A DNA stretch of 64,000 nt from Chara braunii (GCA_003427395.1 BFEA01000005.1:4123953-4187952); one strand, 5' to 3'. Shown: positions 23,865 to 36,422, numbered from the stretch's first letter. Translations and numbers: made by a program. Notes: generated from the letters alone by a model not told the origin.

Positions 23865-24396
23865 ATGATAAATGAGGTCGATCCAATTCCGATGACGGAC
23901 GGATCGTGGTTCAAACGCAAGAATATGAGAAGGTCTTCATTGTTCAACTTGTTGTCGGTGCGTTGTGACTCAACAAGCACAAACACCTACGAGCTTTCAT
24001 AGGGGTCTTGAAAGTTGGCTATCCGCGGCACTGAAAAAAATTGGATAACGGCGAACTCGATCGGTGTAATACGGAGTCGTAGAATATCCCACTAACCGCC
24101 CTCATCCATAACATTCGAAGTTCGTCAGGATCCGGACTTCCAATACTGACCGATTCTGATTGCCACTTGACTCTCGACGACACATACAATTGCCACAAAT
24201 TTGAAGTTTTTTGCCGTCGTCGGACTTGGGAGTCTTGTTCATCAACTACTCTCACTAAACCCCATATGCCTTTGAATGAAATATTGCAGAACAACATTCG
24301 TTATATGCGGATTTCGCCAGAGCTTGAACTCCTGGTGACCGGTTCGGATCTCATCTACCGTTCGACAAAAGCAGAGGACGCGGATATAAAGTGTTT

Positions 24397-24586
24397 CGCT
24401 ATCCGATGTTCGAGTGTTCTCCACACAAGGGGACTGAATAAGTTCGGATGTCGGAGGACTTGGGAGTTCCGTTCATAAACTGCTCTCATTGAACTGAGAG
24501 CAGTTTATGAACGGAACTCCCAAGTCCTCCGGCATCCGAACTTATTTAGTCCCTTAGTGTGGACAACACTCGAACATCGGATAACG
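24397..24586. repeat. Near-perfect ~190-bp palindrome (6-nt loop TTGAAC)
   Basis: Arms TATCCGATGTTCGAGTGTT...AACTGCTCTCA and TGAGAGCAGTT...AACACTCGAACATCGGATA. Confidence 0.95.
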
Positions 24587-25518
24587 TAAAACTCAAAATA
24601 CTGTCTCTGACATTCGAAGTTCGCCGGAATCCGAACTTCAAATAGTGACCGATTCTGATCCTATCTTCCCTTTCCACACAAACACTAGCCTCGAATATGA
24701 AGTTTTTCGATGTCCCTGCTTCGCGTGTCCACGACAGAAGGACACTGACTTAGTTCGGATGTCGGCAAACTTTGGAGTTTCGTTCGTGAACTACTCTTGT
24801 TGAACCCCTGATGCCTTCGGATGATGCCCTGGACAACACCATCTATGGCATGTGAAGTTCGTCAGAATCTGAACTTCAGATGCCATTGGAAAGGCCGTGG
24901 GCGGGGCCATGATAGCTTTAGCCTGTTTACGAACTCCATGTGTTATCCAAAGGCCCCTAGGGGTCGACTGAAGAAGTTCGGATTGCGATGAATTTGAAAA
25001 GTTCACTCAGGTGCAAGTACCGCCTTCCTGATGAACGCAAACATCGTGACTCACCGCGTGCGAAGTTCGCTGGGATCCGAACTTCGACTGTTGAAGGGCA
25101 TGGAATCCGGTTGGTTTGCGCTGTCCAAGTGAATTTTGTCTTTGCAGAACGTGTGTACTGGCGCTATTTCTATACTGACTCGATTTCATCCTTGCTTGTT
25201 CAATTGCAGACACAATGTCTTCTTCGAGGAGTTGGAGCAGCATGCAGATATCTCCGGGGGTCATGAGTGGCGTGCGGAAACCTCAGGGAGGGAGTCGGGT
25301 AAATAATCGACACGACGGTCTGCTACGCGACGAAGGGCCTGTCCTGGTCCAACCACATGAAGGCAAAATAGTTTGTCGATTGGTGTTGTGGCGATGTTTC
25401 CAACCCCACTAAGGCGCCATGCAGACCTGTCATTTTCGTCGACGACGGCAAACGTCGTGGACTGTTAGGGACCGTCGTCGGGTGGGAGGACAACAAAACG
25501 GGTCGCCGCCATTTCCTG

Positions 25519-33900: not shown

Positions 33901-34016
33901 GGGCGAGTGAATGGGCGTGCCTATGTTGCTTACGATGAAGCCAAAAATGAATTCGTTAGAAAGAGGACACAATATAATGTCCTATTTTAACTAATAATAT
34001 GTTATGGAAGACCTAG

Positions 34017-35997
34017 CTAAGCATTCTCAATACAACAATTGTCACGACGGGTGACATTGAGCATGCTCACCATACACCCCCGACAAATTGCATGTCGATT
34101 GCAAACCAAAATGAAAGAAAAATGGTCACCACAAAAGAGCATGCATTCAGTATAGCACTCATGGCCGCAAAATTGACATATAGTGTCTGGATGCGGAGGA
34201 TGTCTACAGTCAGGAACAGAAGGACCATCCTCTGCACACATAGATGCAGAAACCATGTCATTGTAGTGATTGTGACAGAGATGATGGCGGCTACAATCAA
34301 GTGCAACAATGTTTGTGGTTGTGTAAAGGAAAATGTCGCAGAGGGTTGGTACATTATCTTGCTGCAGCATGGGGGCAGAGAAATGATCTTCGACACAAAA
34401 GAGATTGCGGACGATTTGTTGTGGCAAGAAACCAGTATAAGAAATCAGTGACATCCATCATGACATGGACCATAGTGTCGTTGTCCCATAGCTCCAAGTG
34501 GTTAGAGGCATGTACAATGGTCATGTAATAGCCAGGGTCGTGCACAATGCAGGCACAGATGTGAGATGGAAGATTAAACCACTCACCTGCTCGAGCATTG
34601 CGTAGTTCAAGTTGACGGTCCTTCATTGCCACTTGTAGGATAGCGCTGGTAAAACCTCCGCTGGTATAATTACAATCCTTTGGCTGTAGTTCGGAAAGAT
34701 TAGCATCAATTTGAAAGGCGATTGCAAGGAAGTTTGATGGTGTATAAAACGGTCGGTCGAGAATGTGAAGACAGATATTAGATACCGTTAGACCACGAAG
34801 ATAAGTGAGATTCTCAGACTGGTTTGTTGGATGCTGACCAACAATTTGCAGATCACCCAGATGGTTTTGCAAACCCAAACTGTGTTGGGTTGTTTGCTGG
34901 TCAGTCATTTGCAGATCACCCATGTGGTCTGCGCAAGGCGGTTCATCTGAATAACGCTGGTCAGCCATTTGCAGATCCCCCATGTGGTCTACGCCTTGTG
35001 GGGTCAACTGCAATCCGGACAGATCATGTTCTAGTCCCTCAATGCTTAGGGTTGCATCCTGAGTAGGGGTTGTACCTGGAGACGGGAGTGTACTCTGGGC
35101 AGTGGCTGCATCCTGAGTAAGGATTGTACATGGAGTCGGGAGTGTACTCTGGGCAGGGACCACATCGTGTTGTACAAGTGAGTCGTGAATATCTAATGCC
35201 GCACGGTACCGTGGCTGCCTACAGGCAGCTGAACTGTTTACAGGAGGCATAGGAGCGGATATTGCCGTTTGAAACAAAGGAACCGCAACAACCTGTGGAG
35301 GAGGCACAGAGAGAATCGAGGCAGACAAAGAAATGGGTTGTTAATCCCCGGACAACTGACGATGCTGCGAATGTCGTCGGTGATACATAACAAGAGGAGT
35401 AGTGGTGTTGCAAACAAAAGATGAACTTGTACATAGCAACGAAGGTAGAACAATGAGAACAATGGAAACTGGAGAGTCTGTTCGCAAGCGAGACCGTGAA
35501 GGAGATGGGGGTGGTGAGGAGGAACGCAGTCGTCTACGACCAAGCACAAACAAAGATGAGAGGGGGGCGGATTGGGCAAGATTTCGGAGCAAAGGACACG
35601 AGCGTCGTAGAGATTGTGATGTTCTTTGCATTGGAGCTGTAGCAGCAAAAACTAAAGTAGGGGGAATTAGAGTTAGGGAAACTGGGGAAACTGTGTACCG
35701 AAAACTGCAGCAGTGGAAACCGTAGCAGTAGAAACCGCAGCAGCGAAAACTAGAGCAATGAAAACTGCAGCAGTGGACACTGCAGTAATGAAAACCGCAA
35801 CAGTGGACACTGCAACAGTGAAAACTGCAGGAGTGGAGACTGCAACAGTGGAAACTGCAGGAGTGGGAACTGTGGTAGCAGCAGATGAGCAAGCAAGGGC
35901 AGGACGAGAGCATCGTGTGGGCAAAGAAGAAATGGGATGATAGAAGGATCATTGGAGCATGCGTCGGAACTACTGAGAGAGACGTTGTCGGTGTCAA
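34017..35997 (-). pseudogene. Low-complexity N-terminus + Josephin (ataxin-3-like) peptidase domain + C-terminal Cys/His (RING-like) finger
   Basis: 34430-34830: YLRGLTVSN..FYTPSNFLAIAFQID..NYTSGGFTSAILQVAMKDRQLEL..IVHDPGYYMTI..WDN resembles the Josephin pattern LCxxHxLNN..FSPxELxxIAxQLD..NxxxSGxFSxxVIxxALxxxxLEL..HWxT. 34017-34200: CQFC..C..C..CNRHAICRGC..CC. Confidence 0.6.
35695..35885. repeat. 15-bp tandem repeat GAAACTGCAGCAGTG (~12 copies)
   Basis: Direct inspection; in-frame 5-aa period on both strands. Confidence 0.9.
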
Positions 35998-36422
35998 TAC
36001 CCTTACAAGGGTATCCGCCCTGGTTTTCGCAAATGACAGGAGATAAGTTTGGTTTAAAGTTTAGGTATACCGCGCGAGGCGCGACTGTGTCTGTAGTTTA
36101 CGTTAACTTGATGGTTGACTAGAGTAGAGAGTGTGTGGGCGAGCAGACTTAAGGTGTGCGTGATCTCTTTTCCTTTTGATGGTTGAGAAAACCGGTGTTG
36201 GTCGCCGGCTAGGTTTTTATTTTTGATTAAACTAGGATTGAAAATATTTTTGTCTCTCGATTGGTGCACTTGCTTGTGACTTGTGCGTACGTGCGAAAGA
36301 TAACATCAACAACATCGTGGGTTTGAAAATATTTTGACAAATCTGCGTGTCACACAATATTTTTTTATTTAGGTGTGAGTCAGTATTGAACTCAGCCTAG
36401 GGCCTAGCAATATTGGTTACAG

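What the first reader, a model, noticed from the sequence alone, without database searches (positions are those of the whole stretch)
23865..36422. Candidate undescribed chromatin-editing cassette: ParB-like + MTase-like + Ulp1 + Josephin/RING-like genes with their own repeated DNA sites
Seen: between two LTR-like termini lies a 12.5-kb block with a + strand ParB-like/beta-MTase-like ORF followed by a Ulp1 domain, a convergent Josephin-like + Cys-finger ORF, and ~19 copies of a 24-bp motif that I did not see elsewhere in the window. Known: Ulp1 domains are carried by some Mutator-like and Zisupton elements; ParB domains load at palindromic parS sites; Arabidopsis VANDAL elements encode VANC anti-silencing proteins that bind motifs clustered in their own non-coding DNA. 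Inference: this is the cargo of a large mobile element that recognises its own DNA and remodels SUMO/ubiquitin/methylation state, i.e. self-targeted anti-silencing. No transposase or element ends are visible, and this copy is decayed.
Basis: partly seen in the sequence, partly recalled or inferred. Interest (0 to 1): 0.9.

Follow-up and report, generated by a model that had tools for sequence, protein, structure and literature searches.

The report
Algal transposon ParB–pseudo-methylase–Ulp1 gene
This is a broken copy of a many-copy stonewort-alga gene, likely carried by a jumping element, whose protein is predicted to join two bacterial-type DNA-handling folds to a SUMO-cutting protease and would bind a repeated 24-letter site in its own DNA, while the neighbouring 'Josephin' gene is a piece of an already described retrotransposon.

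Summary
The block holds two unrelated things.

(1) 23865-34003 is a decayed copy of a large multicopy gene family of Chara braunii (over 200 related gene models, 20-70% identical). The gene has a ParB/sulfiredoxin fold, a beta-order methyltransferase fold and a C-terminal Ulp1 domain. The ParB and MTase catalytic motifs are replaced family-wide, so they are likely non-catalytic. The 24-bp motif is real: 19 copies, all in the block. Its peptide trace marks the window's own family (50 of 85 models) and not the divergent families (0 of 44).

(2) 34004-35984 (minus strand) is an internal fragment of the published Penelope-like retroelement Chlamys-6_cBra, about 87% identical. The Josephin/Cys-His ORF is therefore not a new cassette gene.

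No transposase, termini or target-site duplication were found. The flanking LTR-like ends are not a pair. Best reading: a VANC/Kaonashi-like self-recognising transposon accessory gene built from phage-type parts. Binding and anti-silencing are untested.

The parts
20940..23864 (+). Flanking high-copy LTR-like repeat ending in CA; a separate insertion, not part of the element described
   Evidence: 76.6% like 12324-14149; laid depth 7,000-33,000 against 29-686 in the block, and loose ends at 23864
24117..25085 (.). 5' non-coding cluster of 8 motif copies (24117+, 24439-, 24521+, 24616+, 24750-, 24854+, 24973-, 25062+)
   Evidence: another locus aligns over 24591-25275 with 121 differences (table 8)
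25291..25860 (+). N-terminal conserved domain of the main gene, fold unknown
   Evidence: tblastn of homologues; in 57 of 110 models
26250..26690 (+). ParB/sulfiredoxin-fold domain; G-Q-H-N/T where ParB has its arginine motif
26690..27600 (+). Conserved middle region, partly helical, no fold assigned
27600..28520 (+). Beta-order N6A/N4C-methyltransferase-like fold with replaced motifs IV and I; likely inactive
28520..29520 (+). Two further conserved regions (a helical one, and one with a WGHD..WHP motif), unassigned
29520..30905 (+). Low-complexity/acidic linker holding 4 motif copies in frame (29704, 29794, 29896, 30111) that read as K-[SF]-x-G-I-R-T-S-type peptides
30966..31392 (.). 3 motif copies (30966-, 31297+, 31369+) in a likely intron
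   Evidence: homologue models jump from 30852 to 31653 or 31956
31653..32716 (+). Ulp1/C48 SUMO-protease domain with preceding exon; His, Asp and Cys positions present; frameshift near 32415 and a stop at 32522
33437..33892 (-). 3' non-coding cluster of 4 motif copies (33437, 33648, 33723, 33869), all on the minus strand, in ~210-225-bp repeat units
   Evidence: motif words absent from the Chlamys supplement
34004..35984 (-). Internal fragment of the Penelope-like retroelement Chlamys-6_cBra (post-RT linker, Josephin-like motif, Cys/His domain), cut at both ends
   Evidence: compared by eye with the published consensus: 60 of 70 and 62 of 70 letters identical on two lines, colinear throughout
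36423..36500 (+). Start of a second LTR-like repeat (TG...), unrelated to the left one; its far end was not defined

Best explanation
The block is a decayed copy of a multicopy Chara gene, likely the accessory gene of a large DNA transposon, that encodes a predicted ParB-fold plus likely inactive methyltransferase-fold protein fused to a Ulp1 SUMO protease and that would bind the 24-bp motif repeated in its own DNA, with a fragment of the known Chlamys-6 retroelement lying beside it. SHOWN: family size, domain order, folds, the motif and its family specificity, decay, and the Chlamys identity. INFERRED mechanism: the ParB/pseudo-MTase part (a pairing seen in phage loci) recognises the partly palindromic motif as a dimer. 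It brings the Ulp1 domain to the element's own chromatin and strips SUMO from silencing factors there, so that only related copies are de-repressed, as VANC/Kaonashi proteins do for VANDAL elements. INFERRED history: the copy decayed, gained the Chlamys piece, and was cut off on both sides by LTR insertions, which is why no ends or transposase are seen.
For: (1) Homologues: 55 and 96 hits, all C. braunii; 209 hits by profile. Of 20 new ones looked up, 18 are C. braunii and 2 metagenomic. (2) The tree of 91 ParB domains shows several deep families, each with short-branched bursts (quick tree, no bootstrap). (3) Gene models are fused to unrelated neighbours: dynein, kinase, RT x2, hAT x2, of 211 scanned. 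This fits dispersed insertion. (4) Ulp1 is joined in 15 of 212 models, 10 close and 5 divergent. His and Cys motifs are both seen in 7 of 11 checked. (5) ParB fold: the first 21 listed Foldseek rows are Srx/ParB/Noc/PadC (E 0.006-0.26). All 7 of 48,161 chains with Z>=5 are ParB/Srx-type. (6) MTase fold: hhalign E=0.0017, score 30.5 against 12.5-14.7 for five controls, colinear in beta order. (7) Motif: 15 of 19 copies are non-coding; peptide trace in 50 of 85 close against 0 of 44 divergent models. (8) Precedent for motif-directed anti-silencing with Ulp1 in VANDALs.
Against: (1) No transposase, TIR or TSD was found. No MULE, CACTA, Helitron or KDZ domain appears in 211 models. (2) No genome was held, so co-occurrence in DNA was seen only in short contigs. 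(3) No fold match reached E<=0.001 or Z>=8, and the long model is poor (pLDDT 45). (4) No helix-turn-helix was identified after the ParB domain. (5) The ParB arginine is absent in 90 of 90 motif matches, so CTP-clamp behaviour is doubtful. (6) The close/divergent motif contrast is one phylogenetic event and would arise from any family-specific repeat. Divergent families' DNA was not seen. (7) RNA: depth 0 (X5) and <=1 (X6) inside the laid part of the block, with 6% and 12% of the runs read.
Confidence: 0.5

Rival explanations
1. Same gene and element, but the protein is a transposition helper of the En/Spm TnpA kind. The motifs are subterminal binding sites used to pair the ends, not anti-silencing targets.
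For: Clusters lie at both sides of the gene. The 3' cluster is wholly on the minus strand, while the 5' cluster is mostly plus. ParB folds bridge DNA (own knowledge).
Against: 7 of 19 copies lie inside the gene. 18 homologue models carry a conserved coding segment further upstream that is absent here, so the 5' cluster is probably internal, not subterminal.
Confidence: 0.2
2. The motif is a passive family-specific repeat spread by slippage or duplication, and the protein does something else, for example acting as a decoy or a general deSUMOylase.
For: Copies sit in longer duplicated units (137, 128 and 50 bp; 99-bp inverted repeat). Four copies are translated in frame.
Against: The 24-bp core is kept between unlike spacers across 10 kb, in both orientations, and shows dyad symmetry (14 of 24 positions). 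Other contigs join motif edges with different spacers (table 5c).
Confidence: 0.15
3. One reading: the element captured the Josephin/Cys-His part of Chlamys-6 as cargo and carries it in other copies.
For: The fragment is cut at both ends and lacks the 3' UTR, which is unusual for a plain Penelope-type insertion. It holds just these domains.
Against: It is ~87% identical to a free-standing described family and has no promoter or start of its own. The presumed catalytic Cys and His are lost. None of 212 homologue models matches it (weak, since it is on the opposite strand).
Confidence: 0.07
4. Not a transposon gene: an endogenised viral segment or a host gene family amplified inside other repeats.
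For: ParB plus beta-MTase is a phage-locus pairing. No transposase was seen.
Against: No relative in IMG/VR by the A1 patterns or in 50,697 phage records. Likely introns, star-like bursts, and pervasive decay.
Confidence: 0.08

Closest known systems
Chlamys-6_cBra Penelope-like element (Craig et al. 2021, PMC8557442; section 9 and supplement parts 45, 47, 48 read)
   Same: 34004-35984 is colinear with its 3' coding part at about 87% identity, including the Josephin-like motif and the Cys/His domain
   Different: The window holds no EN or RT and no 3' UTR; the copy is decayed
VANDAL VANC / Kaonashi (KIU) anti-silencing genes of non-TIR MULEs (PMC5735166 passages; PMC13317346 passages)
   Same: TE-type multicopy gene with a C-terminal Ulp1 domain; family-specific motif accumulated by local duplication in upstream and intronic DNA; variable protein region with repeated peptides
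   Different: The DNA-binding part is a ParB/pseudo-MTase, not the VANC domain; the motif is 24 bp and partly palindromic rather than 9 bp; no MULE transposase seen; function untested
Phage ParB-Tls-locus beta-class MTases and their eukaryotic derivatives; inactive DIRS1 MTase domain (Iyer et al., PMC4738411 passages)
   Same: ParB and N6A/N4C-MTase folds together; precedent for an inactive MTase domain carried by a transposon
   Different: The listed eukaryotic clades are haptophyte FHA fusions and chlorophyte Dam with a ParB-type HTH. A Chara ParB/Srx-domain + beta-pseudo-MTase + Ulp1 fusion is not in the passages read (supplement not read)
Bacterial ParB/Noc/KorB with parS/NBS/OB sites
   Same: N-terminal fold; dyad-symmetric repeated site
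   Different: Arginine motif replaced; no HTH identified; eukaryotic and fused to Ulp1

Membership tests
Chlamys-6_cBra PLE | Nucleotide similarity to the family consensus | tested here: met
   By-eye comparison, 60 of 70 and 62 of 70 identical, colinear over ~2 kb
Chlamys-6_cBra PLE | GIY-YIG EN, RT and intact 3' end | tested here: not met
   The match starts after the RT and stops before the ORF end; it is a fragment only
ParB/Srx superfamily | ParB/Srx fold | tested here: met
   (best Z 6.9, rmsd 3.3, 98 aligned); hhalign E=0.0077; no single match passes strict cut-offs
ParB CTPase clamp | GxxR arginine motif | tested here: not met
   GQHN 62, GQHT 22, other 6, none with Arg, of 90; the canonical motif is recalled
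ParB CTPase clamp | HTH that reads parS | tested here: inconclusive
   The helical region 246-344 of the model gave only Z<5 generic matches
Beta-class N6A/N4C DNA MTase | Fold and motif order IV...I | tested here: met
   moderate support (probability 15%, E=0.0017)
Beta-class N6A/N4C DNA MTase | Catalytic DPPY-type motif IV and FxGxG motif I | tested here: not met
   D-L-C-E (67, 64, 52, 41 of 82) and F-L-G-K-x-H (62, 67, 72, 61, 71 of 82)
Ulp1/C48 protease | Pfam PF02902 and His-Asp-Cys triad | tested here: met
   this copy is frameshifted
Josephin protease | Profile match | tested here: inconclusive
   No Pfam or PDB hit; the paper itself says 'weak homology'
VANDAL/KIU MULE | Linked MULE transposase | tested here: inconclusive
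   None in the window ORFs or in 211 gene models; the element is truncated and no genome was held
VANDAL/KIU MULE | Protein binds own motif and hypomethylates related copies | not testable with these tools
   Needs EMSA/ChIP and a methylome
hAT element | Consistent linkage to one hAT transposase, TIRs, 8-bp TSD | tested here: inconclusive
   DUF659 in 2 of 211 models; their hAT parts do not match each other; no TIR
LTR element internal region | Two similar LTRs flanking the block | tested here: not met
   No similarity between the two flanks

The most novel reading that the evidence does not exclude
Charophytes harbour an undescribed group of large mobile elements, with several ancient families, that co-opted a phage ParB-methylase fusion as a sequence-specific loader. 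It binds parS-like 24-bp sites in the element, spreads along it, and uses the fused Ulp1 to erase SUMO-dependent silencing. That would be an independent invention of VANC-type self-targeted anti-silencing from bacterial partition parts.
Probability: 0.2. Interest if true: 0.85.

Novelty: new variant of a known kind. Interest (0 to 1): 0.55.

Why it matters
If the protein binds its own motif, this is a second, independently built case of a transposon protein that targets counter-silencing to its own family. It would be made from prokaryotic ParB and methylase folds, in the algal relatives of land plants. It annotates more than 200 'hypothetical' Chara gene models and gives a direct test (protein, 24-bp site, SUMO protease). 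The Josephin part adds nothing new.

Tried and rejected
Searches that gave nothing:
- No genome was held, so termini, TSDs, dN/dS and genome-wide motif counts were not possible.
- Pfam, PHROGs and PDB sequence searches gave no ParB or MTase call.
- The minus ORF gave no homologue at near lengths, in the PDB or in Pfam. It was identified only through the literature.
- No related loci in metagenome contigs, viral contigs or phage records.
- The ESM Atlas did not complete (7 tries).
- Global hhalign failed.
- No RNA holder was listed.
- Earlier findings of this scan: none.

Rejected:
- The block as the inside of one LTR element.
- hAT as the established carrier (2 of 211 models, unrelated to each other).
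- Terminal repeats between 23865-24116 and 35985-36422 (best 9 nt).
- A RING finger: no profile match; the paper calls it an unknown C/H motif.

Literature searches for a description of the ParB-MTase-Ulp1 family found none. The library lacks most subscription papers, and the Chara genome paper was not read.

Full report
SOURCE AND FAMILY. The 313-aa frame 27555-28493 found 55 proteins, all named Chara braunii hypothetical proteins, 39-69% identical. A profile of six of them found 96, again all C. braunii (union 110). The full-library profile search found 209 at E<=0.001, of which 150 were listed and 101 were new. Of 20 new ones looked up, 18 are C. braunii and 2 are metagenome proteins, P0129 and P0206; 81 were not looked up and 59 were not shown. 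The window is therefore likely from Chara braunii (inference). No genome was held. Homologues tile the window from 25291 to 32716 in one order, across about ten frame changes and at least seven in-frame stops. This is one decayed gene, not several. A quick tree of 91 ParB domains shows several deep families, each with short-branched bursts (SH-aLRT only). DNA contigs from runs X1 and X3 at 80-95% identity lie across the laid part of the block, including the non-coding 5' cluster. Laid depth there is 29-686 (X1), against 7,000-33,000 in the left flank, which ends at 23864 (depth is not a copy number).

DOMAINS. ParB: the AlphaFold model of P0092 (85 sequences, pLDDT 74) gave no Foldseek match at E<=0.001, but its first 21 listed rows are sulfiredoxin, ParB, Noc or PadC. 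In the wide search only 7 of 48,161 chains reached Z>=5: PadC 6.9, serine kinase 6.7, KorB 6.3, pNOB8 ParB 5.8, SbnI 5.6, Atu1540 5.5 and Srx 5.2. That all seven share the ParB/Srx fold is my knowledge. hhalign against 40 of 80 fetched phage ParB loci gave E=0.0077, score 21.9, controls 9.5-17.3. The motif reads GQHN/GQHT, with no arginine in 90 of 90 matches. MTase: the model of P0024 is poor (pLDDT 45). Its Foldseek list is almost wholly SAM-dependent methyltransferases, including MTA1, METTL3/14, M1.HpyAVI and CcrM (best E=0.011); wide-search best Z 6.1. hhalign of 82 Chara segments against 33 beta-class MTases (34 picked of 75 loci, one dropped for a stop) gave E=0.0017, score 30.5, against 12.5-14.7 for five controls. 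A relaxed alignment is colinear in beta order, with DPPY facing D-L-C-E and the DPFxGSG loop facing F-L-G-K-x-H. So the fold is likely and catalysis unlikely. Ulp1: PF02902 at E=3e-10 in the window. 11 of 211 scanned models hit it, one of them below the cut-off. By tblastn 15 of 212 models include it, 10 close and 5 divergent, so the fusion is old.

MOTIF. One copy reads GAAGTCCGCCGAGATCCGAACTTC (30111-30134). There are 19 copies at >=14 bits, all in 24117-33892, with shuffled mean 0.1: 8 upstream, 4 in frame in the linker, 3 in a likely intron and 4 downstream. In other gene models the in-frame copies leave a peptide trace: 50 of 85 close models with a C-terminal tail, 0 of 44 divergent ones. 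This is one lineage contrast, not independent events. It shows that the motif travels with this gene family. Whether it also occurs elsewhere in the genome is untested.

THE CONVERGENT ORF IS KNOWN. Craig et al. (PMC8557442; passages, section 9 and supplement parts 45, 47, 48 read) describe C. braunii Penelope-like elements with a C-terminal Josephin-like motif and a Cys/His motif (Chlamys-1, -4, -6). Read by eye against the minus strand, 35984 to 34004 follows the Chlamys-6_cBra consensus throughout; two 70-letter lines gave 60 and 62 identities. The match starts after the RT and ends before the ORF stop, and the 3' UTR is missing. The consensus has Cys and His where the window has Arg and Tyr, at the positions I take for the Josephin catalytic pair (inference). 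Motif words were absent from that supplement (line breaks could hide some), so the 3' cluster belongs with the ParB gene. Loss of both ends leaves a small chance of capture as cargo.

BOUNDARIES. The LTR-like ends at 23864 and 36423 share no similarity. No terminal repeat was found. No transposase appeared among 25 block ORFs and 65 other ORFs scanned, only retroelement domains and Ulp1. Among 211 models, the extra domains were hAT (2, unrelated to each other), RT (2), dynein (1) and kinase (1), which I read as gene-model fusions with neighbours. 18 models carry a conserved ~150-aa segment upstream of the gene that is absent from the window and has no Pfam match. Intact elements therefore likely extend further left. 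RNA runs X5 and X6 gave depth 0 and <=1 inside the laid part (6% and 12% of the runs read), so there is no sign that this copy is expressed.

MECHANISM AND COMPARISON. Shown: a multicopy, decayed gene with ParB fold, MTase fold and Ulp1, and a family-linked dyad motif. Inferred: it is a transposon accessory protein that binds the motif and delivers deSUMOylation to its own chromatin. The nearest working model is VANC/Kaonashi. There, TE proteins bind short motifs accumulated by tandem duplication in upstream and intronic DNA, and some carry Ulp1 (PMC5735166 passages; PMC13317346 passages). It may work like VANC but is not a member: the domains differ and no MULE transposase was seen. Iyer et al. 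(PMC4738411 passages; supplement not read, and it may list further architectures) give precedent for phage ParB-locus MTases entering eukaryotes and for an inactive MTase domain in DIRS1 elements, but not for this fusion. Searches (listings only) found no description of the family; the Chara genome paper was not read.

VERDICT. Observation partly confirmed; interpretation partly supported. The four-enzyme chromatin-editing cassette falls apart into a known retroelement fragment and an apparently undescribed ParB/pseudo-MTase/Ulp1 repeat gene with its own motif. New variant of a known kind; interest 0.55.

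Noticed in passing
homologue models P0001, P0108 (240-390) and 16 others; absent from the window: Conserved ~150-aa Cys/Trp-containing segment upstream of the ParB gene in 18 of 212 models, no Pfam match; may be another exon or the end of a neighbouring element gene
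   Followed up: partly
P0129 (1419 aa) and P0206: Two metagenome homologues, 64% alike and 25-30% like the Chara proteins; P0129 covers the ParB-to-C-terminal core in one stretch, so it is a candidate for biochemical tests
   Followed up: partly
window 24390-24593: 99-bp inverted repeat (92%, 6-nt loop) holding two motif copies head to head
   Followed up: no
window 6475-14508: Decayed LTR retroelement (gag, protease, RNase H, integrase) whose LTR-like end resembles 20940-23242 at about 77%
   Followed up: partly
window 14708-16714 and 19463-20065: 91-bp tandem arrays; the first and last arrays are inverted copies of each other, around a reversed LTR-like piece and a 172-N gap
   Followed up: no
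window 54968-56983: RT remnant (minus strand) and aspartyl-protease match (plus strand) of another retroelement
   Followed up: no
window 37513-37669 and 62788-63529: Shared 157-bp repeat in inverted orientation, and a cluster of 84-97-bp palindromic arms near the window end
   Followed up: no
P0025, P0189: Family fragments fused in gene models to a dynein heavy chain and to a protein kinase; possible insertions in or beside host genes
   Followed up: no
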